A stretch of 26,249 nucleotides of DNA from a virus (taxonomy: Duplodnaviria > Heunggongvirae > Uroviricota > Caudoviricetes): positions 1 through 26,249 of the IMG/VR virus record IMGVR_UViG_3300029517_000214. The stretch is one strand, 5' to 3'. This document shows positions 1-26,249 of this stretch, piece by piece (within the stretch, counting starts at the first letter, position 1; every line of letters starts with the position of its first letter). The position numbers and the translations under genes are program-made. The notes beneath the pieces were generated by a model. It had not been told where the DNA came from. It was given only the letters and a program-made list of their open reading frames with translations, and did no database searches.

Positions 1-1329
1 TCATTGCACTGGCACCTTCAGAGGGATCACCGGCACAAAGCCGGGATGCGTAATGGCATTACGCCGGATAATGTCCGCGTCACGCGCCGCGTTATCAAAC
101 CAGGTCGCCGCCAGCACCAGCGCGGGTAAAACCTCATCCGGCGTGCGCTGAATGATCCGTGCAGACTGTTCAAGGCGCGTGTTGATATCCGCATTCAGAT
201 CTGCTTTCACCCGGCGCAGCGCCAGAAACAGCGCATCACTGGTTGTACGGGACAACTCCTTATCAGTTGCCGTATTCAGTGTGTCGCGAATGTCGGTCAG
301 TTCTTCCCACGTTGGCAGGTCAACCGTGTTTTTTACCGCCGGTGCATTGTTCAGCACCGGATGCGTGACGGCAGGCCAGCCGGAGCTCTGCGCGGGTGTT
401 GTTGACTGCCCCACTGCGGCATTCTGCATCACCGCAGAAGTTGTTGGCGCAGGCAATCGGGTAACGGCATACGCCGCTTCGCTGATTGCAGTCGTACGAA
501 GGGTGCTGGCAACCATGTTACGCTGCTGCGTCGCTGTGGCGGTGGTTTTACTGTCCGTTTTCCAGACGCCGCGCGGTTGCAAATCGCTGCCGAGGCTGAC
601 ACCAGAAAGCGTTTTGATCATGGTGACCAGGTCGCTGGCGTTACCATAAAGGCGTTTCCCGGTACGCCACATTTTCTGCACCTGTTCAACGAAATTTTTG
701 CCTGACGATGGCGGCGGCAGAAGTACCGAGATATCCCCCTGCAACAGCCTGGCGGCATCCGATACGGCAGAATCCACCACTTTCATCGCATCAGAAACAT
801 ACCCCAGCATTATGCTGGCATTACCGATAACGTCGTTCTGCACGAAATCCGCCACACCATCGATACTGAAACCGCTGAAGCTGTCACTGATGCAGTCATC
901 CAGTGCAGAACAGGATGACATCAGCGTCTGCGCCGTCGCCGCACCTGATGTGGGGTAAGAGAGTTCTCCTGCTTCGACAAACTTCAGGTCAAAGCGGACA
1001 ATACGCCCTTCACTTTTCGATGTGCTGACCCGAACTTCCCCGTCAACACAGACTTTCAGCTCACCATATGTCGGGTGGACAAGCGTGCCGGGACCTGGTT
1101 TATTCAGCGCTTCAATCAGGCGATCGCGCTGGTCAAAGCAGTCATCTCCCACCACATAAGCCGTGATGGACGGGCGAAAAGTGATTTTCCCCAGGTCTTC
1201 GGTATAGGGTTTGTCGCGGTTCGGGTATTCATGTGTTTCCACACGGCGACCGGTTCCCGCACTTTCTTCTTCAACCTTAAACGGCACGCCGCGAAATGAC
1301 GCGTCCTGAAGCCTGTCTTTCCACGTCAT
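1..1329 (-). CDS. Mu-type DNA circulation protein (gp43/N-like), tail/baseplate-associated
   Basis: Complete 442-aa ORF with stop at 1..3. N-terminal MTWKDRLQDASFRGVPF resembles the DNA circulation N-terminal domain of Mu-like tail modules. Sits downstream of the tape measure as in Mu/SfV tails. Confidence 0.6.
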   Translation of the reverse strand: MTWKDRLQDASFRGVPFKVEEESAGTGRRVETHEYPNRDKPYTEDLGKITFRPSITAYVVGDDCFDQRDRLIEALNKPGPGTLVHPTYGELKVCVDGEVRVSTSKSEGRIVRFDLKFVEAGELSYPTSGAATAQTLMSSCSALDDCISDSFSGFSIDGVADFVQNDVIGNASIMLGYVSDAMKVVDSAVSDAARLLQGDISVLLPPPSSGKNFVEQVQKMWRTGKRLYGNASDLVTMIKTLSGVSLGSDLQPRGVWKTDSKTTATATQQRNMVASTLRTTAISEAAYAVTRLPAPTTSAVMQNAAVGQSTTPAQSSGWPAVTHPVLNNAPAVKNTVDLPTWEELTDIRDTLNTATDKELSRTTSDALFLALRRVKADLNADINTRLEQSARIIQRTPDEVLPALVLAATWFDNAARDADIIRRNAITHPGFVPVIPLKVPVQ

Positions 1330-1340
1330 ATATACTCCGA

Positions 1341-1370
1341 AAATTAAAAAGCCACCTATTAGAAGGTGGC
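1341..1370 (-). terminator. Rho-independent terminator for the moron gene
   Basis: Minus strand reads GCCACCT-TCTAAT-AGGTGGC (7-bp stem, plus 1351..1370) followed by TTTTTAATTTT (plus 1341..1350), 21 nt after the stop of ORF 1391..1921. Confidence 0.5.
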
Positions 1371-1390
1371 CTTGTAATGAATTTTATTAA

Positions 1391-1921
1391 TTAGCGAGTC
1401 AGAAACAACGAATCTTTATACTTTTGCTGTTGTTCATTTAAATACTTAGCTGTTTCATCGCTGGCAAATGGAAATATTACCGTATTTTTAGGCATGGTAA
1501 TTTCTTTTTTGTCCAGCGTCAGAGTAAACATAGGAACATACTGAGCAGAGTAACGCACCGCAGAAACGAGCTCTAGTTTAGACTCTTCAATAACACTTAA
1601 ATTATCCAGGCTAACTTTCTCTTCATCTTTTTTCTTTGACGCATTTAAAGTTTTTATTACTTTATTTAATTTCTCCTGAAAATCCTCCTTAAAGTTTTCA
1701 GGATTGCCGTCGACAACAAGAATCTGTTCACCCTGATTATCTGGAAAAATAATCTTTGCACTTATCAATTTATTTTCTTTATAAACATCACCAAGTTTTA
1801 TGGCTCCTCCAGATAACTGAATAATATGTTCATCTTTAAAGGAGATGTTGCCAGAGATTATGAGAGATGAAAAAATAGCCGCTGCTCCAAGAATTACACT
1901 TGCTGTGATATAGCCTTTCAT
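1391..1921 (-). CDS. Secreted/periplasmic hypothetical protein (moron inside tail operon)
   Basis: 176-aa ORF in a visibly AT-rich island. N-terminal hydrophobic signal-like segment MKGYITASVILGAAAIFSSLIISG with no lipobox cysteine. Flanked by its own promoter-like hexamers and a terminator. Confidence 0.6.
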   Translation of the reverse strand: MKGYITASVILGAAAIFSSLIISGNISFKDEHIIQLSGGAIKLGDVYKENKLISAKIIFPDNQGEQILVVDGNPENFKEDFQEKLNKVIKTLNASKKKDEEKVSLDNLSVIEESKLELVSAVRYSAQYVPMFTLTLDKKEITMPKNTVIFPFASDETAKYLNEQQQKYKDSLFLTR

Positions 1922-1956
1922 TTTTCGCCTATTAACATTTTTCTAAATGTGCATTA

Positions 1957-1984
1957 ATTCTATCACTCTATTTATGACTTACAA
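1957..1984 (-). promoter_or_regulatory. Candidate sigma70 promoter for the moron
   Basis: Minus strand TTGTAA (plus 1979..1984), 16-nt spacer, TAGAAT (plus 1957..1962), about 35 nt upstream of the ATG at 1921. Confidence 0.3.
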
Positions 1985-2012
1985 CCAGCAATACCTGTGA
2001 GGGGAATCCTGG

Positions 2013-3845
2013 CTACCAAAATCGGGTATAGCCAACATCGTGATTTATATCAATGCCACTGGAGCGTGTTTCCGTAACCCGCATACCTGGTGGCATATTT
2101 ATAAATGATACCTTGATCTCACCATCAACTTTTGGCGCGGTAGCTTTATTAATCATGAAGGGATTCGGACCTGTGGCACCGGAGGCGTTGTTTGCCTGAG
2201 CCGGATCCACCTCCGGATAAGGAGTGTATCCCCGTGGCGGTATTCCCGTCCCATAAGCATCATAAGCACCCGCGCCCCACTGCGCCGAGTTAATGGCATC
2301 GACCGTGTCACCGGAACTGTCGGTAAACCATTCAATAATCGGCTTCAGCTTATCCCACATATCCTGAAACCACTTAACAACCGGTCCCCAGTTATTGATC
2401 ACCATCCCCAGCGGCGACCAGGCAAAAACCTTCTTCAGAAGTTCCCAGCCAGCCTCAAAATAAGGACTAATGGTTTCCCAGAGCTTCTTAAAATAAGGTC
2501 CGACAACATCCCAGTTAGTGATAATTAATCCCGCAGCCAGGGCTATCGCCGTCGCAATCATGCCAATCGGCGTCATCGACATGATCCTGCTGACGATACT
2601 GATGGCACTGCCCACGCCCATCAATCCCAGTTTCAGAATCGCAAGACCGGCAGCAAGCCCGACGACGCCGCGAATAACCCGGGGATTTTCATCCGCAAAC
2701 TTCGTGAATTTTTCCCCTAACTCCCCCAGCCATTGCGTGATATTTTTGACGTCACCAGAAAATGCGCCGCCAATAGCCGCAAGGCCGTTAGTTGCGGTCC
2801 CCGTCATTGCCTCCCACAGGTTGGACAGCGTACCAAGCTGGGCCTGAACACGTTTATTCAGGCTGGCCTGTTTATTCATCTTCTGCTGGATCTGATCGTA
2901 ACCATCCTTTCCTTTATCGATCAGAGCATTGACCACCTGAAGGGTTTCGGCATCATCACCAAATATTGCCTTAAGTACACCGGTTCGCTTAACGTCGGTC
3001 AGTTTTCGCAGCTTTGCCAGTTGCCTGAACATGTTATCAAGACCGCCAAAACTCCCTTTGCCGTCAGTAAAATCGAGCTGTACCCCGAGTTTCTGGCGGG
3101 CCATAACTTTATTAACGTCCCTGATTTTCTTAACGCTTAATCCGGACTGGATAACTTTTCGCAGGGCATTACCTGCCGACTCCCCGTTCATCCCCATCTG
3201 ATCCATCATGACGCTGATGGGGGCAAGGCTCTGTGCAGCCTGAAGACCGTCCTTGTTCACCATCTTCAGAACAGAACTGGTTTTAGTGAAGAAGGACAAC
3301 ATGTTGGTATCGTCAACGCCCAGATAAAACGCCTTCTGGATAGTGTCGAACAGCCCCATCATGTCTTCTGACGCCGTTCCGGTAGCATCCTGCATCTTTG
3401 CAGCAAACTCAGCAGCCGCTTCCGGTGTTTTTTTCAGTTGTACCGCAAGATAAGCTGTCGCTTTACCCACACCGCCAAGAATATTTTCTGCCGGGATCCC
3501 CTGACGCACCAGCATCTGCATCATGTTCTGGAAATCAGCCGTTGTACCGGGTAGCTGGTTACCCAGGCCAATAGCCAGTTTATTGATGTCCTGAAAGCTC
3601 TTTCCGACCTCGCCGTTCGCATCCATCATGGCGACTTTCAGCCCGGTGGCGGCGTTTTCCTGATCGGCATAAGATTTCAGGGAAAGCGTCAGACCCGCTG
3701 CCAGTCCGCCACCAAGCGCCAGCCCACCCTGTGATGCTTCTTCCGCCTGGCGTTTAAATCCCCGGATTTTCTTTTGCATTTTCGACAGCGCGGGAGAAAG
3801 TCTGTCGACACCGGTGATCAACGCCTTAAGCTCAAATTCAGCCAT
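2013..3845 (-). CDS. Tail tape measure protein
   Basis: 610-aa ORF with Ala/Gly-rich helical N-terminus, internal hydrophobic segment and Trp-rich C-terminal repeats (WDVVGPYFKKLWETISPYFEAGWELLKKVFAW). Lies directly after the frameshifted chaperone pair. Confidence 0.8.
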   Translation of the reverse strand: MAEFELKALITGVDRLSPALSKMQKKIRGFKRQAEEASQGGLALGGGLAAGLTLSLKSYADQENAATGLKVAMMDANGEVGKSFQDINKLAIGLGNQLPGTTADFQNMMQMLVRQGIPAENILGGVGKATAYLAVQLKKTPEAAAEFAAKMQDATGTASEDMMGLFDTIQKAFYLGVDDTNMLSFFTKTSSVLKMVNKDGLQAAQSLAPISVMMDQMGMNGESAGNALRKVIQSGLSVKKIRDVNKVMARQKLGVQLDFTDGKGSFGGLDNMFRQLAKLRKLTDVKRTGVLKAIFGDDAETLQVVNALIDKGKDGYDQIQQKMNKQASLNKRVQAQLGTLSNLWEAMTGTATNGLAAIGGAFSGDVKNITQWLGELGEKFTKFADENPRVIRGVVGLAAGLAILKLGLMGVGSAISIVSRIMSMTPIGMIATAIALAAGLIITNWDVVGPYFKKLWETISPYFEAGWELLKKVFAWSPLGMVINNWGPVVKWFQDMWDKLKPIIEWFTDSSGDTVDAINSAQWGAGAYDAYGTGIPPRGYTPYPEVDPAQANNASGATGPNPFMINKATAPKVDGEIKVSFINMPPGMRVTETRSSGIDINHDVGYTRFW

Positions 3846-4612: not shown

Positions 4613-6108
4613 TATGCAGACTCCTCTGAATACTGAAGACGGAACTGGTTAACCACGGCAAAGACACGCAACTGGTTAACATAGTCAGGCGGGAACAGCG
4701 TGTTCAGGCGGTTCGGATCGCTGGCATCACGCTCCACAACCAGGTACTGCTTAAACAGTTCGTAGTTTTCCACGATCCCCGCACGCTCAAGCTGACGGTA
4801 GGTTGCCAGCAGTTCCCCTTTGATCACCGCCGGGGTGACAATCGCCTGACCGGGACCAAAGCGGGTACCGTCACTGGCAAGCTTGTGACGCCCGTACTTA
4901 CTGGTAATGACGGATTTCAGTTTGCGCAGTACATACGCGCTGGTATGCAGTGTCTCACTGTCGAGGTAGCTGTTATCCGCAACCCCGTAAGCGTTTTTCC
5001 TGTACGTGGTGACATCACGCTGAATGCGCAGTACCCCGCTTTCGACATACGCCGTTGCCACGCCATGAGACAGCAGGGTCTGTTGTTCGGTCATCGTGAA
5101 CCGTTTCCCCTTCGGCGCAGGCAGCATACCCACCAGCTCACCGGTCTGCGTGGGACGTGCCGGATCGTTGCGAATAAACACCGCTGCGCGGGCGGTACGG
5201 CTTGCCGCCAGTTCGTCGGCAGGCGTCTGGGTCTCTTTTTCGTACCCCGCCAGGGTAATGTGCTGCTGGTTAAACTGGTCACCTGCGGTCACCAGTTCTG
5301 ACAGCGTGCCGATCTTTGCCGTATACACATGACCATACAGCTGACGCGCATAGCTCCAGCGACCGCTGGTATCGTTCATCTCGGTCACCAGCGTGTTAAC
5401 GGAGGCCGTGTCGTTGAACGGCAGGCCGATATAATCAAACGGCTCATCCGCCATTGCAGCCACCGCGCCGGTGAGAACCGGAGCACCCGTTCCGGCGGTA
5501 CCCGTCGCCACGGCAATCTGTACGCCCGCTGGCAGCACTTCGCCCCCACCAAAGCCGTAGTAATTGAGGCTGACAGGAATTTCATTCCCGCAAAGCCCCT
5601 TATGACGCGCGGTCAGTGTGACCACACCTGCCGAAGATGAAGCCGTAAACGGCAGGGCCGGAACGGCATTGATGGCATCTTTGATACTGCTGGCAATCGT
5701 CGTGACGTTATCGCCGTTGGTCACCGGAGCCTGCACGCGGGTACGTCCCACATAGACATTCACCGTGCCGCTTTCGGTTGCTTCCCCGGTCACCGTCAGC
5801 GTAACCGTTGCCGCCGCGCCTGTGGCTTCCGGAACGGCAATCACATACAGCTCACCAAACGGGTCGGTCTGGCGATAAGCCTCGACCATACGCGCCAGCT
5901 GACTTCCCGCACCACAAATCTGGCGTGCATAGTCTGCCGACGGCATCAGCACCAGACTGTTGGCAACAATCTCTGCACCGTTACTGGCATGACCAATCAG
6001 CAGCGATGCTCCGCTGTCCTGTGCAGTATTCGCCGCCTGGTTATCCATTTCCGCATAAAACAGCGGAACCAGCGTATTCGACGGAATGGTGTTAAAGCTT
6101 ATCGTCAT
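4612..6108 (-). CDS. Tail sheath protein (Mu gpL-like)
   Basis: 498-aa ORF immediately upstream of tube/chaperone/tape measure; length and context typical of a contractile sheath. Confidence 0.75.
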   Translation of the reverse strand: MTISFNTIPSNTLVPLFYAEMDNQAANTAQDSGASLLIGHASNGAEIVANSLVLMPSADYARQICGAGSQLARMVEAYRQTDPFGELYVIAVPEATGAAATVTLTVTGEATESGTVNVYVGRTRVQAPVTNGDNVTTIASSIKDAINAVPALPFTASSSAGVVTLTARHKGLCGNEIPVSLNYYGFGGGEVLPAGVQIAVATGTAGTGAPVLTGAVAAMADEPFDYIGLPFNDTASVNTLVTEMNDTSGRWSYARQLYGHVYTAKIGTLSELVTAGDQFNQQHITLAGYEKETQTPADELAASRTARAAVFIRNDPARPTQTGELVGMLPAPKGKRFTMTEQQTLLSHGVATAYVESGVLRIQRDVTTYRKNAYGVADNSYLDSETLHTSAYVLRKLKSVITSKYGRHKLASDGTRFGPGQAIVTPAVIKGELLATYRQLERAGIVENYELFKQYLVVERDASDPNRLNTLFPPDYVNQLRVFAVVNQFRLQYSEESA

Positions 6109-6252
6109 CGGTGTTCACCTTTTTATTCACGCGCCGGATATCACCAGCTGCTTCACGGCGCAGCCAGTAGTTGTTCTCGTCAACATTTCGCCCTTCGGCG
6201 GGCAAAAGGTCGCTGCGGGCAGGGTCAGGCACTGACCGCCCTTTAACAGGTT
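6082..6252 (-). CDS. Small hypothetical protein (below the ORF-track cutoff)
   Basis: Hand-translated 56 codons from ATG at 6252 (MFVKPVKGRSVPDPARSDLL...KKVNTDDDKL); fills the gap between 6271 and the sheath gene and overlaps the sheath start by 27 nt. Confidence 0.25.
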
Positions 6253-6270
6253 TCACAAACATGAGGATCC

Positions 6271-6831
6271 TCAGGAAGGAATGGTTATTTCTGTGTGATG
6301 TTCGATATCGCCGTCAGGCCCGTTACCGGGATCGAGATAATCAACATCAATCGCCAGCGTTTGCAGTTCATCCAGACTGTTCAGATCATCCTGCTGGCGG
6401 GTATCGTCTTCAGTCAGCTCGCTGATGACCGAAAAATCGAACTGATAAATCAGCTCATGACGATTCAGATCCAGCAGCGTGCCGCCGTCATAGGTAATCG
6501 GGTTACCGCACGCCTCCGGGTTCCAGCCCAGCAGAGCCTTAAAGAGCATCTGCCGGACATCGTCCACCACATCATACGAGGCAAACTGACCGCGCTCATC
6601 ACGCCCGTTACTCAGTATGACAATCACGGAGAAACCCTCTTTCAGCGCCTGCCAGTAGTCGGTCTGGCTTTTGTTTTCTCCCGGAGAATCATCACCCGGT
6701 ACAACATATGCCGCCGGGAGTTTCAGCTTTCCGACCTCCGGCAGATTTTTGAACTGGGCCGCACCTGCAACCCGGTTTTCAAAATACGGACAGCGGGCAC
6801 GCAGTGCAGCAATAACAGGCGTCAGTTTCAT
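6271..6831 (-). CDS. Putative tail completion/terminator-type protein (head-tail junction module)
   Basis: 186-aa ORF, ATGA-type coupling with the upstream gene at 6828..6831; call is by position between head-tail joining genes and the sheath. Confidence 0.4.
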   Translation of the reverse strand: MKLTPVIAALRARCPYFENRVAGAAQFKNLPEVGKLKLPAAYVVPGDDSPGENKSQTDYWQALKEGFSVIVILSNGRDERGQFASYDVVDDVRQMLFKALLGWNPEACGNPITYDGGTLLDLNRHELIYQFDFSVISELTEDDTRQQDDLNSLDELQTLAIDVDYLDPGNGPDGDIEHHTEITIPS

Positions 6832-13924: not shown

Positions 13925-14275
13925 TCACCTGAACCGCTCACGCGCGGTCTTCACTGCGTGACACGACCAGCACAGACTCTCAAGGTTGCTGTCTTCATCA
14001 GTGCCGCCGTGAGCCTTCGCCTTGAGGTGGTCCACGCAGGACGCTTGCTTCACAACTCCCTGCCGAAGATGGTTCTGACATAACCCTTTGTCGCGCTTTA
14101 GTATCCGCTCCCGGATGACTTCCCACTTTGTTCCATATCCGCGCTGCTGCCGTGATTGACCTGGCTTGTAGGATTTCCAGCCCTCACCTTTATGATTTTC
14201 GCAGTAGCCTGACGGATCTGTAGTGGTAGAACGGCAGCCGCGAACACGGCAGGCTTTTGGGATTCGTGGCGGCAT
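13925..14275 (-). CDS. HNH endonuclease (terminase-associated)
   Basis: Cys-rich N-terminus and C-terminal CVDHLKAKAHGGTDEDSNLESLCWSCHAVKT HNH motif; located just upstream of terS as in HK97-like packaging modules. Confidence 0.8.
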   Translation of the reverse strand: MPPRIPKACRVRGCRSTTTDPSGYCENHKGEGWKSYKPGQSRQQRGYGTKWEVIRERILKRDKGLCQNHLRQGVVKQASCVDHLKAKAHGGTDEDSNLESLCWSCHAVKTARERFR

Positions 14276-14373
14276 ATGGAAAACTCCGGATAGAAATTAT
14301 GATAGAAACCATGTTATTTAATAGCGTTTCAATCCGTTAAGTAACAATGGTTATGCTCGTAAAGGACGCCCTG

Positions 14374-14763
14374 ATGACAAATAACTACATGAATGATTTC
14401 CTCAAATACTCACAGCCATATGTTCCAAAGGACTACAATCTTGCAAATGAATTTCATAGACGCCTTATATGCTGGATAAATGATTTTCACCGTGAACTTG
14501 AAGAAGAGTATGAGGTAGGAGGACAACTAGCTAGCTTTGGTAAAAACATTGAATTTCATTTCACAGACATAAGCTACTGGAATCCATCATTAATTTCTTT
14601 CATTGGTACTCTGGAGGATGGCAGTCCTGTAGAACTTGTTCAGCATGTATCTCAAATAAATGTCCTGCTAATCCGAAAAAAACGCTTATGCTTAGAGACC
14701 CCTAAAAGACCGATTGGGTTTGCTGATTGGGGTGAATACGACTCCTTTAAAGGAGATAATTGA
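14374..14763 (+). CDS. Hypothetical protein, opposite-strand moron at the bor position (possibly YbcV/YdfO-like)
   Basis: AT-rich plus-strand ORF between the spanin genes and the packaging module. Start assigned to the Met with an AAGGA RBS 8 nt upstream (MTNNYMNDF...); the longest ORF starts at 14347. Family guess is from memory of position and size only. Confidence 0.55.
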   Translation: MTNNYMNDFLKYSQPYVPKDYNLANEFHRRLICWINDFHRELEEEYEVGGQLASFGKNIEFHFTDISYWNPSLISFIGTLEDGSPVELVQHVSQINVLLIRKKRLCLETPKRPIGFADWGEYDSFKGDN

Positions 14764-14770
14764 TAACTTT

Positions 14771-14795
14771 ATTGCGGGCGATAATTGCCCGCAAT
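14771..14795. terminator. Hairpin between convergent genes (possible bidirectional terminator)
   Basis: ATTGCGGGC / GCCCGCAAT 9-bp stem with 7-nt loop, between the stop of 14374..14763 (+) and the stop of 14806..15024 (-); flanking U-tract is weak. Confidence 0.4.
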
Positions 14796-14805
14796 CTCGT
14801 TTGCC

Positions 14806-15836: not shown

Positions 15837-16117
15837 TAGTGCCTCAGATGGTCAACCAGACGTGCCACATTGCCTCTGACGGCGACCAGCACGGACAGGA
15901 AAATAATGTTGGCCACGATAGTGGCCCACGATGAATAAGGGTAGATACCGCACAGATACGCCAGCGGTACGGCGCTATAAATGACCGTAAGCAGCCACGC
16001 TAAGCGAGATATCCACGGTCGATGTCTGGAGTCGCCACGACGATAAAACATCAGAGTAATAACAACACAAGCACATAACAGCGCATTTATAGTTGCTGTC
16101 GGGTCATTTAGCTCCAC
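15836..16117 (-). CDS. Holin-like small membrane protein (holin or antiholin)
   Basis: 93 aa with about three predicted TM helices, immediately upstream of the endolysin gene. Confidence 0.5.
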   Translation of the reverse strand: MELNDPTATINALLCACVVITLMFYRRGDSRHRPWISRLAWLLTVIYSAVPLAYLCGIYPYSSWATIVANIIFLSVLVAVRGNVARLVDHLRH

Positions 16118-16490
16118 CTGAACCTCCCCGGCGCGTTATGAGCGCCACCAGCGAGCCGATATCCTGATTATTCAGGAACGTCAGGATTTTAACGGCTAAA
16201 GCAGAGACGATTACGGCACCAATAGCATCCAGAGGTTTATCACTGTATCCGGTCAAGTTCGCCAGCTTGGAGCCAACCAACCCAGAGCAAAGGATCCCGG
16301 CAATATATGACACGATAAAATATGCTAGTCGGCGCGATGCACTCAGATCTGCTGCTGTTGCTATGTAGAATACAGCCCCTGCAAATGCGCCAAATACAAC
16401 GCCGTAATCAGTTCCGGTCAGCAGTCCATAAATACTAGCGCCCGTTAGGGCTCCACCAGCTAACCCTGTGCCGGAAATCGGATCGGACAT
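16104..16490 (-). CDS. Putative holin
   Basis: Gly/Ala-rich hydrophobic helices with a charged C-terminus (RRGGSGGAK); start taken at ATG 16490 with GAGGTGG RBS rather than the longer ORF start at 16556. Confidence 0.5.
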   Translation of the reverse strand: MSDPISGTGLAGGALTGASIYGLLTGTDYGVVFGAFAGAVFYIATAADLSASRRLAYFIVSYIAGILCSGLVGSKLANLTGYSDKPLDAIGAVIVSALAVKILTFLNNQDIGSLVALITRRGGSGGAK

Positions 16491-16598: not shown

Positions 16599-17405
16599 CT
16601 ATTTCTTAATGATGCTATTTAACATTTCTAATGCAAAAAGCAACATGGAGCTAATAAAATACAATATAACCGCACTGGCAATCGCTCCAATTATAGCCTG
16701 GACACTCCAGTGAAAGTAATTTTTACCATTAATAACAAACTTAACACTAGGAAACAAAAAGTCGATAAGCTTAATTATTAATGGAATAGCAAAGCTCCAT
16801 AAGTTCGAAAACAAAATAAAGATACAAATAAATGATAAAGCAAATGCACCATCGATTGATAGTTTTGGCGCCAGTTTTGAGGCTGTCCATAAGCTAAGCA
16901 AAAAGCCAACTGTCACACCTGAAATCTGGATACTTAACATAGTCCAAGCTGTTCTAAAAAATCTAAATTTATTTTTGCACTTGTTAAGTAAATCCTGAAT
17001 CGTAATCCATAACGAGTCAACCCACTCATTATCTTCCGATGCTACAATCATTGTGCTGCTATTTGAATTCCTCTCATCAATTCGTAGCTCCATCCAAGAT
17101 CCATTCATCCTGTTAGACTGTCGACTTTGATAAGTTTCAATAGTAAAAATTATTTGATCAATCCTAGTGGCCTGTCTAAAGTATTTCACAAGCTCACCGA
17201 TAGAATCAACTTTATACCCCTTACCATCGAACAAAATAAAAAAAACACATTGAGCACAAACTTCCCTACTTTCCTTTTGAGCTTGCTCATTCATTTTAAC
17301 GCAGCGTTCGACAATTGCCGTGCTTAAGCTAATCAAGCTATCTTCATTTATAGAAACACCTGAAATATTCTTGCTTCTGTAAAAATATGACACTTTCGAT
17401 TCCAC
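16599..17405 (-). CDS. Hypothetical membrane protein: ~165-aa soluble N-terminal domain plus ~3 C-terminal TM helices
   Basis: 268-aa ORF in a strongly AT-rich island between Q/tR' and the holin; I recognise no family. Confidence 0.6.
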   Translation of the reverse strand: MESKVSYFYRSKNISGVSINEDSLISLSTAIVERCVKMNEQAQKESREVCAQCVFFILFDGKGYKVDSIGELVKYFRQATRIDQIIFTIETYQSRQSNRMNGSWMELRIDERNSNSSTMIVASEDNEWVDSLWITIQDLLNKCKNKFRFFRTAWTMLSIQISGVTVGFLLSLWTASKLAPKLSIDGAFALSFICIFILFSNLWSFAIPLIIKLIDFLFPSVKFVINGKNYFHWSVQAIIGAIASAVILYFISSMLLFALEMLNSIIKK

Positions 17406-17602: not shown

Positions 17603-17872
17603 TCAATGAGTGCTCATCGATGAATTTTTTTCAGCGCCAATCTCACTCAAAAAAGCAAAACCTTTTGACGTTATCTCATTAGCAATCAATCCACCTTCGG
17701 CAGATTTGCTTCGTATAACATCGATAAAACCTATATCAGCAAGATCTGAAATAGCAAAGTTAACCTCTTTTGCTGAGAGATGAGGTAATGATGCAGCCTG
17801 AATTCTAGAATCCTTTGGCTGCAATTCATTCACTCGACGTAGTATTTCAAGATGGATAGAGGTCAGTTTCAT
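17603..17872 (-). CDS. Small hypothetical protein, possible winged-helix DNA-binding fold
   Basis: 89-aa ORF in the same AT-rich island, same strand and upstream of the membrane-protein gene; helix pattern HLEILRRVNEL...EVNFAISDLADIGFI suggests a wHTH. Confidence 0.5.
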   Translation of the reverse strand: MKLTSIHLEILRRVNELQPKDSRIQAASLPHLSAKEVNFAISDLADIGFIDVIRSKSAEGGLIANEITSKGFAFLSEIGAEKNSSMSTH

Positions 17873-17940
17873 AATGTTCTCCTGTTTTTAATGTTGTTTT
17901 ACAGAAAACATTATAACACATTGATTTTGATGTAGATTGA

Positions 17941-18086: not shown

Positions 18087-18839
18087 TTATCTCGTCACCC
18101 TTCTCAATTGTGCTTCAGCGTAAGCTTCCTCCTGCCAGCACTTTGTAACCAGTTTATCAATGACATCTGCATATCCTTTGTACCACTGATAATCCGTCAG
18201 GTCTGGTACCAGCTTCTGGACATGAAGCCGCGCCAGTGTGGTTGGTAAACGGCTAAACCGGTTTCCACTGCAACGCCCACAAATCTTATAAACAGGCGTG
18301 CCATGAAGCCGGGTTCTTTTTTCATCCAGGACAATACCTTTACCCTTACACCCTCTGCACGCGGTGCTGACTTCTCCCTTACCATGGCAATGCTGACATA
18401 GTTCCTTCACCCACTCTTCCTTGATAACAGATTCCCCGCTTCTGGAGTGTTTCACCACTTCGCGCAATACATTATGAAATCCAGTACCAGCACAATGCTC
18501 ACAGCGAGCCTTACTTGCCGCAGACCTGGAATAATCAGCAAAGGCAAAATTCACAAGGTAAGGGATGATCTGTAACCGGGTTTCTTCACTCAATTTGTTC
18601 AATGTCGGGTTATCCAGTGCCATCGCGTAATTGAGCAGACCTTCAATCGCAAACTGAGGATCCTGAACACCAACTTTTGCCAGGAATAAGGCAAACCCAA
18701 GCGGTGCTTTCGACTGCACCATCCCCTGCGCAGCCATCACATCCGTAATCGTTAAACCACCTGAGCCTGTCGCCGGTGCGTCATCGCTCAATTTTGGAGA
18801 TTTTGGGGAGTAATATTTTGGTAAGGCTTCAAGGTTCAT
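18087..18839 (-). CDS. Late-gene antitermination protein Q
   Basis: Cys-rich zinc-binding segments (CEHCAGTG, CQHCHGKGE, CRGCKGKG, CGRCSG). Start at MNLEALPKYY with GGAGAA RBS, which avoids overlap with the upstream gene. Positioned upstream of the lysis genes. Confidence 0.75.
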   Translation of the reverse strand: MNLEALPKYYSPKSPKLSDDAPATGSGGLTITDVMAAQGMVQSKAPLGFALFLAKVGVQDPQFAIEGLLNYAMALDNPTLNKLSEETRLQIIPYLVNFAFADYSRSAASKARCEHCAGTGFHNVLREVVKHSRSGESVIKEEWVKELCQHCHGKGEVSTACRGCKGKGIVLDEKRTRLHGTPVYKICGRCSGNRFSRLPTTLARLHVQKLVPDLTDYQWYKGYADVIDKLVTKCWQEEAYAEAQLRRVTR

Positions 18840-18852
18840 GCTCGTTCTCCAC

Positions 18853-19838
18853 TTACGCCAGCACGCCAATTGCCAGCGCACGATCGATAAAACGAAATAT
18901 CAGCTCCAACTGGGAGCCATACTTTTCTTCAAATGCCACGGTATCCGCATGCAGATCGTCGTGATGCTTTCTGCACAAAGGCAACACAAAGAGGTCATGC
19001 GCTTTTGTACCCATTCCCCCCTGACCGTCGCCTATCAGGTGGTGGGGATCATCAGCAAGCTTTCCACAACATGCACACGGCTGTGTCTTAACCCAGCGCG
19101 TGTACTTTTCATTAGCCCAGCGGCGACGTTTTGGGCGTAACATAAAAGACTCCGGCGACTCCGGATCCACTTTCAGCGCCAGCACCTTTTTCGCCTTATC
19201 CTGGATGATGCTGGTGGCAGGAACCGAAGGCACAAGGTCACTTTCCCGGGTGACAGACGGCACAACAGGCTTCGGTAATCTCAGTGCCTTACGGGCTGCA
19301 CTTTCCGGTAAGGCATCCGCCAGGTCATTACGAACCAGCCACCAGCACAGTTCCGGCATTGTCACAACGTGACTATCATCAAAACCGAGATCCCGACGCA
19401 CAACAGACAATACCCAGCGGGCACAGTTATCCGTTGCCATTGATTCCAGCCGTTCCGTGAACTGATCGCGCAACTGGTTATCGCAGTGCCAGCACAGACG
19501 GATTGCGCCCGGCGCGTGTCGCATTGTGGTCATGTTCTCGCTGTGCCAGTCGGANNNNNNNNNNNNNNNNNNNNNNNNNAGCTTTCAAGACATTCCACCC
19601 CACCAGCACGACGAATCACTGCCTCATTACGGAACACGGCCCGAACGACAGGATCATCCGCCAGCGGTTGTGATGCCGCGGGAACGGCACCACTGGCGAA
19701 AGATGAATAATGCTCCGGCTCAGGCTCCAGCAGTACACGCCCCTGCATAAACAGGGGCATCAGCTCTGAACCTGGTCTGAACAATACGATCCCCATACGC
19801 GGGGCAATTTCAGGGGTCAGTAGTGCTCTCACGGTCAC
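18853..19838 (-). CDS. DUF968-like (YdfU-like) protein, interrupted by an assembly gap
   Basis: Two ORF pieces (19530..19838 and 18853..19533) flank the N-run. The C-terminal part has a Cys/His-rich region (QPCACCGKLADDPHHL...CRKHHDDLH). Position directly upstream of Q matches ydfU next to quuQ in Qin. True length and frame across the gap are unknown. Confidence 0.5.
19556..19579. other. Assembly gap (24 N)
   Basis: Run of n characters in the sequence. Confidence 0.99.
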
Positions 19839-23406: not shown

Positions 23407-23754
23407 GTGGAAGAAGAAATCTTCACTCGTGAAGAGGCTGCGTCGTATCTGAAGGTAGACAAAGGCACTATCACGCAGTGGATACGAAGTGGACGACTTC
23501 AAGCCGCAAAGATAAATCCAGATAAACCTAAAAGCCCATATCGCATTTGCAAGTCAGACTGCATTGCGGCGCTTAAGTCTGTGAGACACAATGGCGCGGT
23601 GAATGCGGTTGATGTGCAGGAGGTTAAAGCATGTCAATCAAACTGCGCGGTGGCACATGGCACTGCGATTTCGTCGCGCCAGATGGATCAAGAGTTAGAC
23701 GCTCTCTTGAAACATCGGACAAGAGGCAAGCGCAAGAACTTCACGATCGTCTGA
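23407..23754 (+). CDS. xis: Excisionase-like DNA-binding protein (Xis)
   Basis: GTG start with GGAG RBS; N-terminus FTREEAASYLKVDKGTITQWIRSGRLQAAKI fits excisionase/AlpA-type HTH; immediately upstream of and overlapping int. True 3' end uncertain. Confidence 0.6.
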   Translation: MEEEIFTREEAASYLKVDKGTITQWIRSGRLQAAKINPDKPKSPYRICKSDCIAALKSVRHNGAVNAVDVQEVKACQSNCAVAHGTAISSRQMDQELDALLKHRTRGKRKNFTIV

Positions 23755-24791
23755 AAGCAGAAGCGTGGAGAGTAAAAAATCTCGGGGAATCACCGAAAAA
23801 GCTATTCAAGGAAGCCTGCATACGGTGGCTGCGTGAGAAATCGGATAAGAAGTCCATTGATGATGACAAGAGCATTATATCGTTCTGGATGTTGCACTTC
23901 AGAGAAACCATTCTCTCTGACATAACAACAGAAAAAATAATGGAGGCGGTAGACGGGATGGAAAACCGCCGCCATCGCCTGAACTGGGAGATGAGCCGGG
24001 ATAGGTGTTTGCGGCTTGGCAAGCCAGTGCCGGAGTATAAACCAAAGCTGGCAAGCAAAGGAACGAAGACGCGGCATCTGGCAATACTTCGCGCTATTCT
24101 CAATATGGCTGTTGAATGGGGATGGCTTGACAGGGCGCCCAAAATATCAACACCACGCGTTAAGAATGGACGAATCAGATGGCTTACAGAGGAGGAATCG
24201 AAGCGCCTGTTTGCAGAAATTGCTCCTCATTTCTTCCCTGTGGTCATGTTTGCAATCACGACAGGCCTTCGTCGTTCCAACGTTACAGACCTTGAGTGGT
24301 CACAGGTCGATCTGGATAAGAAAATGGCATGGATGCACCCTGATGAAACAAAAGCTGGCAATGCGATCGGAGTTCCTCTTAACGAAACCGCATGCCAGAT
24401 ATTAAGAAAACAGCAGGGGCTCCATAAGAGATGGGTATTTGTCCACACCAAACCTGCCTACCGAAGCGACGGAACAAAAACAGCAGCGGTAAGGAAGATG
24501 AGAACCGACAGCAACAAGGCATGGAAGGGAGCGTTAAAGCGGGCAGGCATTAGCAACTTCCGCTTCCATGACCTGAGGCATACCTGGGCAAGCTGGCTGG
24601 TTCAGTCCGGTGTCTCTCTTCTTGCACTTAAAGAGATGGGAGGATGGGAAACTCTCGAAATGGTTCAAAGATACGCCCACCTTTCAGCTTGGCATCTCAC
24701 CGAGCACGCGAGCAAAATCGATGCGATTATAAGTCGCAATGGCACAAATACGGCACAAGAGGAGAACGTAGTTTACTTAAATACGAGGTAA
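23631..24791 (+). CDS. int: Tyrosine-type site-specific integrase
   Basis: 386 aa with C-terminal catalytic motifs (HDLRHTWAS; LEMVQRYAHL with the catalytic Tyr); AGGAGG RBS; stop 14 nt from the tRNA 3' end. Confidence 0.9.
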   Translation: MSIKLRGGTWHCDFVAPDGSRVRRSLETSDKRQAQELHDRLKAEAWRVKNLGESPKKLFKEACIRWLREKSDKKSIDDDKSIISFWMLHFRETILSDITTEKIMEAVDGMENRRHRLNWEMSRDRCLRLGKPVPEYKPKLASKGTKTRHLAILRAILNMAVEWGWLDRAPKISTPRVKNGRIRWLTEEESKRLFAEIAPHFFPVVMFAITTGLRRSNVTDLEWSQVDLDKKMAWMHPDETKAGNAIGVPLNETACQILRKQQGLHKRWVFVHTKPAYRSDGTKTAAVRKMRTDSNKAWKGALKRAGISNFRFHDLRHTWASWLVQSGVSLLALKEMGGWETLEMVQRYAHLSAWHLTEHASKIDAIISRNGTNTAQEENVVYLNTR

Positions 24792-24805
24792 CTTATTGAT
24801 TTAGA

Positions 24806-24881
24806 TGGTGCCGATAATAGGAGTCGAACCTACGACCTTCGCATTACGAATGCGCTGCTCTACCAACTGAGCTATATCGGC
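24806..24881 (-). tRNA. thrW: tRNA-Thr (anticodon CGT), thrW-type
   Basis: Hand-folded cloverleaf: acceptor GCCGATA/TATCGGC, D arm GCTC/GAGC, anticodon stem GCGCA/TGCGC with loop TTCGTAA, T arm GTAGG/CCTAT, encoded CCA. Confidence 0.9.
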
Positions 24882-24995: not shown

Positions 24996-26249
24996 TTACG
25001 CACGAATGGTGTAATCACCAATGCCGATCCACTTGTAAGTGGTCAGTGCTTCCAGCCCCATTGGGCCACGCGCGTGGAGTTTTTGTGTGCTTACCGCCAC
25101 TTCCGCACCCAGACCAAACTGGCCGCCGTCGGTAAAACGCGTAGAGGCGTTAACGTAAACAGCGGACGAATCCACTTCGTTAACAAAACGCTGGGCGTTG
25201 CGCATATCGCGGGTCAGGATCGCATCGGAGTGTTGTGTGCCGTGTTCACGAATATGGGCGATGGCATCGTCAAGATCGCTGACGATTTTGACGTTCAAAT
25301 CTAATGACAGAAACTCATCGTCATACTCTTCGGCTTTAACAGCAACCACCTTCGCAGGGCCTGCCTGCAACTGCGCCAGTGCAGCTGCATCTGCGTGTAA
25401 TGTCACGCCGCTTTCCGCCATTTGTTTGCTTAATGCGGGCAGGAAGCTATCGGCGATGTTTTTATTCACCAGCAACGTTTCAACCGTATTACATGTGCTC
25501 GGACGCTGAGTTTTCGCGTTGACGATCACTTTTAATGCTTCAGCGATCTCTACACTTTCATCAACGTAAATATGGCATACGCCTATACCACCTGTGATCA
25601 CCGGGATTGTCGACTGTTCACGGCACAGTTTATGCAAACCAGCGCCACCACGCGGGATCAGCATGTCGATGTATTTATCCATACGCAGCATTTCACTGAC
25701 CAGCGCACGGTCAGGATTATCAATCGCCTGCACGGCACCCGCCGGTAAGCCGCAGGATTTCAGGGCGTCCTGAATCACCGCCACCGTTGCAGCGTTAGTG
25801 CGACACGTTTCTTTGCCACCGCGCAGGATCACCGCATTACCGGTTTTCAGGCACAGCGAAGCGACATCAACCGTCACGTTCGGGCGCGCTTCATAAATCA
25901 CGCCAATAACCCCCAGCGGTACGCGACGACGCTCAAGACGCAGGCCGCTGTCCAGTACGCCGCCATCGATTACCTGCCCCACCGGATCGGCGAGGTTGCA
26001 CACCTGACGTACATCGTCGGCAATGCCTTTCAGCCGTGCGGGCGTCAGTGCCAGACGGTCAAGCATCGCTTCGCTAAGGCCATTGGCTCGCGCGTCAGCA
26101 ACATCCTGGGCGTTAGCGTTGAGGATGATTTCGCTTTGTGCTTCCAGTTCATCGGCGATTTTTTCCAGCACGCGATTTTTTTCGCGGCTGGAGAGTTGCG
26201 CTAATTTATACGAGGCTTGCTTCGCGGCAATGCCCATTTGTTCCAGCAT
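24996..26249 (-). CDS. proA: Gamma-glutamyl phosphate reductase
   Basis: Complete 417-aa ORF recognised as enterobacterial ProA ([40 protein letters not shown]...); start codon at the window edge. Confidence 0.95.

What the first reader, a model, noticed from the sequence alone, without database searches (positions are those of the whole stretch)
1340..2012. Self-contained moron (promoter, signal-peptide protein, terminator) inserted in the tail operon
Between the tape measure and DNA circulation genes lies an AT-rich block with sigma70-like hexamers (TTGTAA, 16-nt spacer, TAGAAT), a 176-aa ORF with an N-terminal signal-like segment and no lipobox cysteine, and a clean hairpin plus U-tract terminator. 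This is textbook moron architecture, interrupting an otherwise tightly coupled Mu-type tail operon. A secreted Lys/Glu-rich protein expressed from a lysogen could be a host-fitness or exclusion factor.
Basis: partly seen in the sequence, partly recalled or inferred. Interest (0 to 1): 0.55.

Follow-up and report, generated by a model that had tools for sequence, protein, structure and literature searches.

The report
Optional membrane-protein cassette in tail operon
An optional, AT-rich add-on gene ("moron") sits between two tail genes of an SfV-like E. coli prophage and encodes a small membrane-tethered periplasmic protein of unknown function, most plausibly a shield against other phages; the arrangement is textbook, but the protein family has not been characterised.

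Summary
Window 1340-2012 is a 673-bp block of 34% GC in a 51% GC prophage. It lies between the tape-measure gene (2013-3845, -) and the Mu gpN-like hub gene (1-1329, -).

The block holds a sigma70-like promoter with an extended -10, a 176-aa ORF (1391-1921, -) and a hairpin plus T-tract.

SfV, SfI and SfII, and most relatives whose flanks are 97-99% identical, lack the block. They have a 60-nt spacer there instead. Other relatives carry unrelated genes in the same slot, so this junction is a cargo hotspot and the gene is dispensable.

- The N-terminus looks like an uncleaved membrane anchor rather than a secretion signal.
- A terminator hairpin is present in this slot even when it is empty.
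- The family (about 79 sequence clusters; phrog_5485; no Pfam family, no solved fold) recurs next to tape-measure, hub or spike genes in at least three tail-module types. It also survives as chromosomal orphans and once sits next to a repressor.

My best guess is a prophage-expressed, envelope-located superinfection-exclusion factor analogous to HK97 gp15 or P22 SieA. The function is untested. This is a new member of a known kind, of moderate interest.

The parts
1340..2012 (-). The whole optional cassette (673 bp, 33.9% GC), bounded by the TMP stop codon (2015..2013) and the ribosome-binding site of the N gene
   Evidence: Composition. Missing from SfV, SfI and SfII and from 43 of 77 close relatives. 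At least 99% identical in 179 of 5426 complete E. coli genomes.
1979..1984 (-). -35-like hexamer TTGTAA
   Evidence: A TTGnnA hexamer is present at the equivalent upstream position (by scan) in diverged homologues L180, L182/183, L004 and L008.
1957..1965 (-). Extended -10 element TGaTAGAAT (TG at 1965..1964, TAGAAT at 1962..1957); the predicted transcript start is near 1950
   Evidence: The 12-mer AATAGAGTGATA (1972..1961) is identical upstream of the Kosakonia and Enterobacter orphan copies, whose proteins are only about 40% identical. No E. coli variant changes any base between the -35 and the ATG.
1926..1930 (-). Shine-Dalgarno-like AGGCG, 5-9 nt upstream of the ATG
   Evidence: Read from the sequence. 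It aligns with GGAGGCG in Kosakonia.
1391..1921 (-). ORF X: 176 aa, phrog_5485, no Pfam, NCBIfam or PADLOC family
   Evidence: Homologues. AlphaFold2 model with pLDDT 91.7.
1850..1915 (-). Codons 3-24: the apolar N-terminal segment, predicted to be a transmembrane signal anchor (N-terminus in, C-terminus out) or a long signal peptide
   Evidence: 22 uncharged residues, Kyte-Doolittle 19-residue window score 2.1, family median stretch 20 residues; helix over residues 2-23.
1338..1373 (-). Intrinsic-terminator-like hairpin (1373..1348) with T-rich tail (1347..1338)
   Evidence: About -17 kcal/mol. Found as inverted repeat I1. Every homologue examined has an equivalent hairpin with a U-tract, and so does the empty slot.
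2013..3845 (-). Upstream flank: tail tape-measure protein, 610 aa
   Evidence: PF10145 at 9.8e-27 and phrog_28. 97.6% identical to SfV orf14.
1..1329 (-). Downstream flank: Mu gpN-like DNA-circulation / baseplate hub protein, 442 aa; its SD sequence GGAG is at 1338..1335
   Evidence: PF07157 at 8.4e-34 and phrog_184. 97.3% identical to SfV orf15.

Best explanation
The block is a moron, meaning a dispensable accessory cassette lodged in a recombination-permissive cargo slot between the tape-measure gene (TMP) and the gpN-like hub gene (N) of an SfV-like prophage integrated at thrW.

Proposed expression (inferred). In the lysogen, host RNA polymerase starts at the cassette's extended -10 promoter near 1950, transcribes the 176-codon gene, and stops at the hairpin at 1373..1348, so the baseplate genes stay silent. 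During lytic growth, Q-modified polymerase coming from the late promoter reads through the hairpin, so the late operon is not interrupted.

Proposed product (inferred). The protein is tethered to the inner membrane by an N-terminal helix (residues about 3-24, N-terminus in the cytoplasm). It displays a roughly 150-residue alpha/beta domain in the periplasm.

Proposed function (the weakest step). It acts as a superinfection-exclusion factor. It would interfere in the periplasm or at the inner membrane with the tape-measure, hub or spike machinery that incoming contractile-tailed phages use to cross the envelope. The analogy is to HK97 gp15, P22 SieA and T4 Sp/Imm.

What is shown: optionality, composition, the existence of the family, fold confidence, and genomic contexts.

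What is inferred: promoter use, membrane topology, and above all the anti-phage function.

My confidence by layer: moron about 0.9; envelope or periplasmic location about 0.8; exclusion function about 0.4.
For: Optional and foreign:
- The block is absent from SfV, SfI and SfII and from 43 of 77 relatives with a 99%-identical N gene.
- It occupies about 16% of E. coli junctions.
- It is 34% GC against 51% for the rest of the window, with GC3 of 30%.
- The same slot holds unrelated cargo elsewhere: the SKA5-type signal-peptide protein, a bPH_1 protein, an 'OB-fold protein' and a lipoprotein.

Own expression signals:
- The window has TTGTAA, a 16-nt spacer, then TGaTAGAAT.
- Homologues that are 55-59% identical have TTGTCA-16-TATAAT and TTGCTA-16-CATAAT at the same place.
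- A 12-nt stretch of the extended -10 region is conserved in orphan copies whose proteins are about 40% identical.
- A hairpin with a U-tract follows every homologue examined.
- A Q antiterminator gene lies at 18087..18881. This explains how a terminator can be tolerated inside a late operon.

Selected independently of the phage:
- A Lelliottia orphan keeps only a 31-codon TMP remnant, the promoter region, the ORF and the terminator, next to icd.
- Further orphans occur in Kosakonia and Enterobacter.
- One homologue sits immediately downstream of an S24 repressor-type gene, beside defence-like genes.
- Within E. coli copies there are 7 synonymous changes against 4 conservative non-synonymous ones.

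Envelope location:
- All 48 aligned family members keep an N-terminal apolar segment, mostly 17-25 residues long.
- The AlphaFold2 model (pLDDT 91.7) has a helix over residues 2-23 followed by a compact alpha/beta domain.
- The only structural relative found is a lipoprotein (lipobox LLTGC) of the lytic Pseudomonas phage ventosus. It shares the membrane-proximal motif (Foldseek E 1.2e-6; hhalign E 0.0018). So the domain is extracytoplasmic and membrane-tethered in both versions.

Link to the injection machinery:
- Of the 8 phage-borne contexts examined, 7 place the gene within four genes of the tape-measure gene. In 5 it is directly adjacent to the tape-measure gene. In the other 2 it sits beside the spike gene in the baseplate cluster.
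- These contexts span three tail-module types.

Precedent:
- HK97 gene 15 is a moron next to the tape-measure gene. [quoted passage not shown]
Against: - There are no expression, localisation or phenotype data.
- The consensus promoter and terminator counts do not exceed shuffles. A relaxed promoter pattern turns up in 21% of shuffled upstream sequences.
- Two homologues (L090, L095) show no recognisable promoter, and one (L103) overlaps the stop of the spike gene. In those phages expression from the late operon seems to be the main route.
- Signal-peptide cleavage, which would give a soluble periplasmic protein, cannot be excluded without SignalP or an experiment.
- Envelope morons can also be virulence or fitness factors, as with lambda Bor and Lom.
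Confidence: 0.45

Rival explanations
1. The cassette is a moron, but its product is a host-fitness or virulence envelope factor, in the way lambda Bor and Lom are. It would contribute to serum resistance, adhesion, stress tolerance or envelope homeostasis, not to phage exclusion.
For: The protein is predicted to sit in the envelope. Orphan copies are kept in chromosomes outside intact prophages. The block is at least 99% identical in E. coli from many hosts. Alternative cargo in the slot is mostly envelope proteins of unknown role.
Against: The family is repeatedly placed next to tape-measure, hub or spike genes in unrelated tail modules, and once beside a repressor and defence-like genes. A generic host-fitness role does not explain that pattern. 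A relative occurs as a lipoprotein in a strictly lytic 97-kb phage, which has no lysogen to benefit.
Confidence: 0.2
2. The gene is a non-essential late gene that serves the phage's own lytic cycle and is transcribed mainly with the tail operon. One possibility is a membrane protein that stops progeny or superinfecting tails from firing on the already-infected cell or its debris, as T5 Llp does. Another is a protein that modulates envelope events at lysis.
For: The gene always has the same orientation as the tail genes. In L103 its start overlaps the stop of the spike gene. In L095 it starts only 34 nt after the TMP stop and no promoter is detectable. Its divergence ranks in the same order as that of the N gene across Leclercia, Mangrovibacter and L095. 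A relative exists in a lytic phage. The Q antiterminator would allow read-through.
Against: Orphan copies keep their own promoter region and terminator after the prophage has been lost. One copy is next to a repressor gene. The gene is dispensable in SfV, SfI and SfII. L180-183 show a TMP that is 75-77% identical but a gene X that is only 55-59% identical, so the histories are partly independent. This rival overlaps the best explanation, since the two differ in timing rather than in mechanism.
Confidence: 0.2
3. The protein is a structural or assembly component of the Mu-type tail that SfV-type annotations have simply missed.
For: The gene lies inside tail or baseplate gene clusters in 7 of the 8 phage-borne contexts.
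Against: It is absent from viable isolated phages SfV, SfI and SfII and from most close relatives. It can be replaced by unrelated genes. It has an N-terminal membrane anchor or signal segment, which is not expected of a protein assembled into tails in the cytoplasm. It occurs as chromosomal orphans and next to a repressor.
Confidence: 0.02
4. The block is a decaying, non-functional remnant of horizontally acquired DNA, and the promoter- and terminator-like motifs are chance products of AT-rich sequence.
For: The motif counts do not exceed the shuffled expectation. Some database copies are truncated, and the Enterobacter EA-1 copy has a premature stop.
Against: The family is full-length in about 79 clusters, with invariant residues. 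The fold is predicted with high confidence. Synonymous changes outnumber non-synonymous ones. The signals keep their positions in diverged copies.
Confidence: 0.03

Closest known systems
HK97 gene 15 moron (Juhala et al. 2000; Cumby et al. 2012; reviewed in PMC3594210)
   Same: Both are compositionally deviant add-ons inside a tail operon, directly adjacent to the tape-measure gene, in the same orientation as the tail genes, with their own promoter and terminator. Both encode a small protein with an N-terminal membrane segment. In one relative (L101/102), gene X occupies exactly the gp15 position, between the chaperone-like ORFs and the tape-measure gene.
   Different: There is no sequence relationship. 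gp15 belongs to the YebO family, and no Pfam hit of any kind was found for X. X is about three times larger and has a folded roughly 150-residue periplasmic alpha/beta domain. The host phage has a contractile Mu/SfV-type tail rather than a siphovirus tail. Exclusion has been demonstrated for gp15 and is untested for X.
P22 SieA (PMC10883804), and T4 Imm and Sp (the latter two from my own knowledge)
   Same: These are phage-encoded inner-membrane or periplasmic proteins that block envelope crossing by incoming phage DNA or tail-tip proteins. Their specificity is set by the injected or tail-tip proteins of the incoming phage.
   Different: No homology was detected. Those genes are not in tail operons. 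The function of X is only inferred.
Outer-membrane or periplasmic lipoprotein exclusion factors T5 Llp and phi80/N15 Cor (Cor is discussed in PMC3594210)
   Same: These are envelope-tethered phage proteins, and cor lies in the tail-gene region of lambdoid phages. The only structural relative of X is a phage lipoprotein, ventosus CNR37_00111.
   Different: X has no cysteine and therefore no lipobox. There is no evidence that it masks a receptor. No homology to these proteins was detected.
phrog_5485 and phrog_34391 (PHROGs families of unknown function)
   Same: X matches phrog_5485 over its full length, 176 of 176 positions, at E 3.8e-108. It is a member of that family.
   Different: The PHROG carries no annotation, so membership says nothing about function. 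The broader family defined here (about 79 clusters at 50% identity) reaches beyond it.
The cargo slot between Q and the lysis genes in lambdoid and SfV-like phages (described as a moron in SfIV, PMC3851460)
   Same: It is the same kind of variable, AT-rich, promoter- and terminator-flanked slot. This window has one too, at about 16560-17990.
   Different: It is a different position. In the papers I could search, I found no description of the TMP|N junction as a cargo hotspot.

Membership tests
Moron (in the sense of Juhala and Hendrix; definition in PMC3594210) | Present in one phage genome and absent from closely related genomes, so that it adds extra DNA | tested here: met
   SfV, SfI and SfII match only the flanks, and the two matched pieces lie 381 bp apart there instead of 1001 bp. 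43 of 77 relatives have an empty 60-nt junction. 175 of about 1,084 E. coli genomes that have the junction carry the block.
Moron (in the sense of Juhala and Hendrix) | Base composition differs from that of the surrounding genes | tested here: met
   33.9% GC against 51.5%; GC3 of 30% against 56-60%. The homologues are also AT-rich, at 35-43% GC against 46-57% in their flanks.
Moron (in the sense of Juhala and Hendrix) | Has its own promoter | tested here: inconclusive
   TTGTAA, 16 nt, TGaTAGAAT is present, and it keeps its position in several homologues. However, the count does not exceed shuffles, two homologues lack a recognisable promoter, and there are no transcript data.
Moron (in the sense of Juhala and Hendrix) | Has its own terminator | tested here: met
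   A hairpin of about -17 kcal/mol with a T-tract begins 18 nt after the stop codon. All homologues examined have one. Caveat: the empty slot also has one.
Moron (in the sense of Juhala and Hendrix) | Expressed from the repressed prophage | not testable with these tools
   This needs RNA-seq, 5'-RACE or a reporter assay in a lysogen.
phrog_5485 | Significant full-length match to the family HMM | tested here: met
   E 3.8e-108, residues 1-176 against profile positions 1-176 of 176.
HK97 gp15 / YebO family, and the other exclusion families modelled in Pfam (for example T4 Imm) | Sequence match to the family model | tested here: not met
   No Pfam family at E <= 1. The only PHROG hits are its own two unannotated families plus one weak hit (E 0.014) annotated 'endonuclease'.
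Known anti-phage defence systems (PADLOC-DB v2) | Match to any PADLOC protein model | tested here: not met
   No family at E <= 1.
Superinfection-exclusion proteins (a functional class) | Located in the inner membrane or periplasm | tested here: inconclusive
   Predicted only: a 22-residue apolar N-terminal helix with Lys2 on the cytoplasmic side, and a distant homologue that is a lipoprotein. No experiment.
Superinfection-exclusion proteins (a functional class) | Blocks infection by incoming phage after adsorption | not testable with these tools
   This needs efficiency-of-plating, adsorption and DNA-entry assays.
   The n-region (MK) and h-region are present. A possible site is IISG|N. But the apolar stretch is 22 residues (family median 20), and no conserved AXA-type motif appears across 48 members. 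SignalP was not available.
Bacterial lipoprotein | Lipobox ending in Cys at the end of the signal peptide | tested here: not met
   The protein contains no cysteine.
Essential Mu-type tail or baseplate component | Present in all functional members of the tail-module family | tested here: not met
   Absent from the isolated phages SfV, SfI, SfII and vB_EcoM-689R6, and from most prophage relatives.

The most novel reading that the evidence does not exclude
The 176-aa protein may be the founding member of an unrecognised family of membrane-tethered periplasmic proteins. Members are anchored either by an N-terminal transmembrane helix or, in a lytic Pseudomonas phage, by a lipid. The family is genetically linked to the envelope-penetrating parts of phage tails (tape measure, hub, spike) in at least three unrelated tail-module types. 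On this reading it would be a new, tail-tip-specific superinfection-exclusion mechanism for contractile-tailed phages, with a fold that has no solved relative. In addition, the TMP|gpN junction of SfV-like prophages would be a previously undescribed hotspot that exchanges such envelope-acting cargo.
Probability: 0.3. Interest if true: 0.6.

Novelty: new member of a known kind. Interest (0 to 1): 0.38.

Why it matters
SfV-like prophages are present in about a fifth of complete E. coli genomes (1094 of 5426). They also drive serotype conversion in Shigella. A polymorphic cargo slot inside their tail operon is a compact natural library of lysogen-expressed genes, most of them encoding envelope proteins. 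At least five alternatives were seen.

If the 176-aa protein excludes related phages, three things follow:
- It would help explain competition between nearly identical prophages.
- It would add a new fold and a new family to the small set of injection-blocking proteins.
- It could affect the host range of therapeutic or typing phages on roughly 3% of E. coli strains.

If it is instead a host-fitness factor, it would be one more uncharacterised envelope moron. Either way the cassette is small, self-contained and easy to test.

Tried and rejected
- Family libraries. Pfam, NCBIfam and PADLOC gave no hit for the protein. A sequence-profile search of the PDB gave nothing below E 0.3.
- The afdb50 fold library was unavailable.
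- tblastn of the protein against 50,697 isolated phage genomes found no match.
- A genome-contig scan with the wide family alignment failed because no stretch was conserved enough. The narrower alignment returned only 3 loci.
PMC3430355, the primary gp15 paper, is not held.
- I looked for operator-like repeats around the promoter. Only the terminator hairpin stood out.
- Rfam found nothing in the block.
- I considered whether the TMP C-terminal variant correlates with the cargo. It does not: the OB-fold-type locus L064 has almost the same TMP 3' end as loci that carry gene X.
- Strict co-divergence of X with the TMP was rejected. L180-183 have a TMP that is 75-77% identical but an X that is only 55-59% identical.
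- Literature searches for the RefSeq accession, and for any description of this slot, found nothing.
Full report
THE OBSERVATION

All genes here are on the minus strand. The window begins at the stop codon of a 442-aa gene (1..1329). That gene matches PF07157 DNA_circ_N (8.4e-34) and phrog_184 'baseplate hub', so it is the Mu gpN-type protein, called N below. Upstream of it, at 2013..3845, lies a 610-aa tape-measure protein, called TMP below (PF10145, phrog_28).

Its features are:
- Composition: 33.9% GC, against 51.5% for the rest of the window. The GC3 of its ORF is 30%, against 56% for TMP and 60% for N.
- Promoter-like site: TTGTAA (1984..1979), a 16-nt spacer, then TAGAAT (1962..1957), preceded by TG at 1965..1964.
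- Ribosome-binding site: AGGCG at 1930..1926.
- ORF: ATG at 1921, 176 codons, TAA ending at 1391.
- Terminator-like site: a 10-bp stem-loop at 1373..1348 (about -17 kcal/mol) followed by TTAATTTT. This runs directly into the GGAG ribosome-binding site of N.
- Protein: no cysteine; 12% Lys and 8% Glu; an uncharged N-terminal stretch at residues 3-24.

The motif scans alone are not significant. They found 2 promoter-like sites against 3.0 +/- 1.9 in shuffles, and 1 terminator-like site against 1.5 +/- 1.2. The reality of the feature therefore rests on composition, coding evidence and comparison with related sequences.

IS IT AN INSERTION?

Yes, in the sense that it is optional.
- Megablast of 1200..2200 against isolated phages hits SfV, SfI, SfII and vB_EcoM-689R6 only in the flanks. 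The two matched pieces lie 381 bp apart in those genomes instead of 1001 bp.
- In SfV the TMP stop is separated from the N start codon by a short spacer that contains its own hairpin and T-run.
- I fetched 80 IMG/VR loci with a 99%-identical N gene and measured the distance from the TMP stop to the N start in the 77 that had both genes. The results were:
  - 43 empty, with a 60-nt spacer;
  - 18 with this gene (gaps of 683 or 680 nt);
  - 10 with an unrelated, AT-rich 170-aa signal-peptide protein, the same one found in phage SKA5;
  - 5 with a bPH_1 (PF08000) protein;
  - 1 with a 225-aa lipoprotein (lipobox LLGGC);
  - 1 with another insert.
- In complete E. coli genomes, the N gene is present in 1094 of 5426, the block in 179, and the block in its full TMP|X|N context in 175. 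A spread sample of the remaining junctions shows mostly empty ones, plus 'PH domain', 'OB-fold' and SKA5-type cargo, and one IS200C insertion.
- All 79 IMG/VR loci that encode the protein and have enough flanking sequence show TMP upstream and N downstream.

The TMP|N junction is therefore a cargo hotspot, and this gene is one of at least five alternative occupants.

Each occupant brings a different GC hairpin with a T-run, placed directly before the conserved sequence CGGAGTtTATATG at the start of N. The empty junction has such a hairpin as well, at about -14.8 kcal/mol. So the terminator is a constant feature of the slot, not something special to this cassette.

The prophage also encodes a Q-type antiterminator (18087..18881, PF03589). 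This gives the classical explanation for why a terminator can be tolerated inside a late operon. That explanation is an inference from the established behaviour of lambdoid Q proteins.

THE PROTEIN FAMILY

The protein matches phrog_5485, a family of unknown function, over its full length (E 3.8e-108). It matches nothing in Pfam, NCBIfam or PADLOC.

A word-indexed search found homologues that are 52-59% identical and 173-174 aa long, including named Leclercia and Lelliottia proteins. An exhaustive profile search of 1.84 billion cluster representatives found 79 clusters at E <= 1e-3. Most full-length members are about 165-205 aa, and the matches run from the N-terminus.

All 48 aligned members share three features:
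- an N-terminal apolar segment;
- a motif directly after it, N-[IV]-x4-G-x-V-x-L-G-x-V-Y-x-E;
- a Y-S-E...P.F.LTLD block. Gly44 and Tyr124 are invariant.

Within E. coli copies I counted 7 synonymous changes and 4 conservative non-synonymous changes. No change falls between the -35 and the ATG.

TOPOLOGY AND FOLD

With the 48-sequence alignment, AlphaFold2 gives pLDDT 91.7 and pTM 0.76. The model has a helix over residues 2-23, a short linker, and then a compact domain with the order beta-beta-beta-beta-alpha-beta-beta-alpha.

The apolar stretch has a family-wide median of 20 residues (mostly 17-25). The mean Kyte-Doolittle score over 19 residues is about 2.2. A positive charge precedes the stretch, and there is no conserved AXA-type cleavage motif. 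This fits an uncleaved type II signal anchor better than a typical 8-12-residue signal-peptide core. Cleavage after IISG24 cannot be excluded without SignalP or an experiment.

Foldseek against BFVD found a single hit, at E 1.2e-6 with TM-scores of 0.56 and 0.66. It is a 144-aa 'lipoprotein' of the lytic 97-kb Pseudomonas phage ventosus. I located that gene as CNR37_00111. It has the lipobox LLTGC, followed by TKDTIIHT..VVNVGEV, which hhalign aligns to the family motif (E 0.0018; the hhalign probability is low, 15%, because the template is a single sequence). The domain therefore appears to be extracytoplasmic and membrane-tethered in both versions.

GENOMIC CONTEXTS OF RELATIVES

Same slot, TMP|X|N:
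- Leclercia: X 53%, N 68%, TMP 35% identical to the window.
- Mangrovibacter: X 38%, N 56%, TMP 22.5%.
- A metagenomic contig, L095: X 30%, N 44%, TMP 21%.

The identity of X ranks in the same order as that of N. But L180-183 have a TMP that is 75-77% identical and an X that is only 55-59% identical, so the histories are mosaic.

Other tail modules:
- In E217/Pam3-type baseplate operons, X lies just upstream of the spike gene (L093, L094). In L103 it lies just after the spike gene, with its start overlapping that gene's stop.
- In a third module type, X lies between chaperone-like ORFs and a phrog_28 tape-measure gene, which is the HK97 gp15 position.

Outside tail modules:
- One copy follows an S24 repressor-type gene and precedes defence-like genes with HNH_2/CTD11, MC6/MC7 and DUF2326 domains.

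Chromosomal orphans:
- Lelliottia has a copy 370 nt downstream of icd. It still carries a 31-codon TMP 3' remnant, the promoter region and the terminator.
- Kosakonia and Enterobacter sp. EA-1 have copies next to a chemoreceptor gene. The EA-1 copy has a premature stop.
- Two further copies lie on short contigs.

All copies examined for composition are AT-rich relative to their flanks.

PROMOTER EVIDENCE FROM COMPARISON

In the scans, -35/-10 pairs lie a similar distance (about 48-66 nt) upstream of the ATG in several homologues:
- window: TTGTAA-16-TAGAAT;
- L180: TTGTCA-16-TATAAT;
- L182/183: TTGCTA-16-CATAAT;
- Lelliottia: TTGTCA-17-GAAAAT;
- Leclercia: a weaker TTGCAA-16-CGCAAT, read by eye from the alignment; the scan did not report it (its own Leclercia hit is a different pair closer to the ATG).

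The 12-mer AATAGAGTGATA, which spans the extended -10, is identical upstream of the Kosakonia and Enterobacter orphans, even though their proteins are only about 40% identical.

A relaxed version of the pattern occurs in 21% of shuffled upstream sequences, and the sequences compared are related to one another. The support is therefore modest.

Mangrovibacter and L095 show no recognisable promoter, and L103 overlaps the spike gene's stop. So a dedicated promoter is not universal in the family.

INTERPRETATION

The block meets the definition of a moron: extra DNA relative to relatives, deviant GC, and its own promoter and terminator (PMC3594210). It closely parallels the archetype, HK97 gene 15. 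[quoted passage not shown] The block depends on the tail region of the incoming phage. P22 SieA is a second inner-membrane protein that blocks the ejection-protein conduit.

Five observations bear on function:
- the predicted periplasm-facing, membrane-tethered topology;
- the recurrent linkage to tape-measure, hub and spike genes, which encode the tail parts that cross the envelope;
- the copy next to a repressor gene;
- the survival of orphan cassettes after the prophage has decayed;
- the lipoprotein relative in a lytic phage.

From these I judge superinfection exclusion at the envelope to be the most likely function, at about 0.4.

The main rivals are a host-fitness envelope factor (0.2) and a non-essential late function serving the phage's own lytic cycle (0.2). 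That second rival overlaps mechanistically with exclusion. A structural tail role and non-functional junk are both essentially excluded.

NOVELTY

The architecture is textbook. The protein family is uncharacterised. I found no description of this slot as a hotspot in the searchable literature. The SfIV paper describes only the moron slot between Q and the lysis genes. Verdict: a new member of a known kind, of moderate interest.

Noticed in passing
window 16560-17990 (minus strand): A second AT-rich cassette (32-38% GC) lies between the Q antiterminator gene (18087..18881) and the holin gene (about 16104..16490). It contains a hairpin with a T-run after Q (about 17980-17955), an extended -10 TGTGTTATAAT (17920..17910), an 89-aa ORF (17603..17872) with a weak, sub-threshold match to DUF2513, and a 268-aa ORF (16599..17405) with hydrophobic C-terminal segments and no Pfam or PADLOC hit. 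A further hairpin with a T-run follows at about 16566-16543. The same slot was called a moron in SfIV (PMC3851460).
   Followed up: partly
window 1330-1347; SfV locus L002 1650-1690; L023: The 'empty' TMP|N junction of SfV, SfI and SfII, and of 43 of 77 relatives, still holds a 60-nt spacer with a GC hairpin and a T-run (about -14.8 kcal/mol). Every cargo type brings a different hairpin, placed just before the conserved CGGAGTtTATATG. So there is always an intrinsic-terminator-like element between the tape-measure and hub genes. Its role is unexplained; it could set the ratio of tail to baseplate transcripts, act as a recombination joint, or be a relic of earlier cargo.
   Followed up: partly
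IMG/VR loci L088, L034, L019, L064; E. coli hits H58-H92: The same slot holds other cargo in other genomes: an SKA5-type 170-aa signal-peptide protein (31% GC), a bPH_1 (PF08000) protein, an 'OB-fold protein', and a 225-aa lipoprotein (lipobox LLGGC). In strain L65 (NZ_CP034738) an IS200C element has inserted into the cassette.
   Followed up: partly
L008 (Lelliottia) 5800-6620; L092 (Enterobacter sp. EA-1); L091 (Kosakonia): Orphan copies of the gene occur outside prophages. The Lelliottia copy is 370 nt downstream of icd and keeps a 31-codon remnant of the TMP 3' end plus the terminator. The Enterobacter copy is 3.3 kb from an icd fragment and has a premature stop. The Kosakonia copy lies next to a chemoreceptor gene and about 4.7 kb from an integrase fragment. 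These look like prophage decay that spared the cassette.
   Followed up: partly
L103 4222-5513; L101/L102 4020-7888: In an E217/Pam3-type baseplate operon, the homologue's start codon overlaps the stop of the spike gene, suggesting translational coupling. In another prophage the homologue sits between chaperone-like ORFs and the tape-measure gene, which is exactly the position of HK97 gene 15.
   Followed up: partly
L096 184-5219: A 22%-identical family member directly follows an S24 (LexA/CI-type) peptidase gene. It is followed by genes with HNH_2/CTD11, MC6/MC7 and DUF2326 domains, a neighbourhood that looks like a defence island.
   Followed up: no
L104 1160-2167: A distant family member lies next to a BOF (periplasmic OB-fold, PF04076) gene. 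This is curious because an 'OB-fold protein' is one of the alternative cargo genes in the E. coli slot. It may be a coincidence.
   Followed up: no
window 23631-26249: A tRNA-Thr(CGU) gene at 24806..24881 abuts the integrase gene (23631..24791). It is followed by a host aldehyde-dehydrogenase-family gene (24996..26249), which I take to be proA-like. This is the thrW attachment site typical of SfV-like phages, so the window spans the prophage from the hub gene to its integrase end.
   Followed up: partly
window 14000-15000: A patch of 43-47% GC contains a DUF6173 ORF (14347..14763) on the opposite (+) strand to the structural genes. It may be another accessory gene, lying between the packaging and lysis regions.
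   Followed up: no
phages collection: No isolated phage genome among 50,697 records encodes a tblastn-detectable homologue of the 176-aa protein. Yet the gene is in about 3% of complete E. coli genomes and in at least 79 IMG/VR prophage contigs. It has so far been seen only in prophages and metagenomes.
   Followed up: yes
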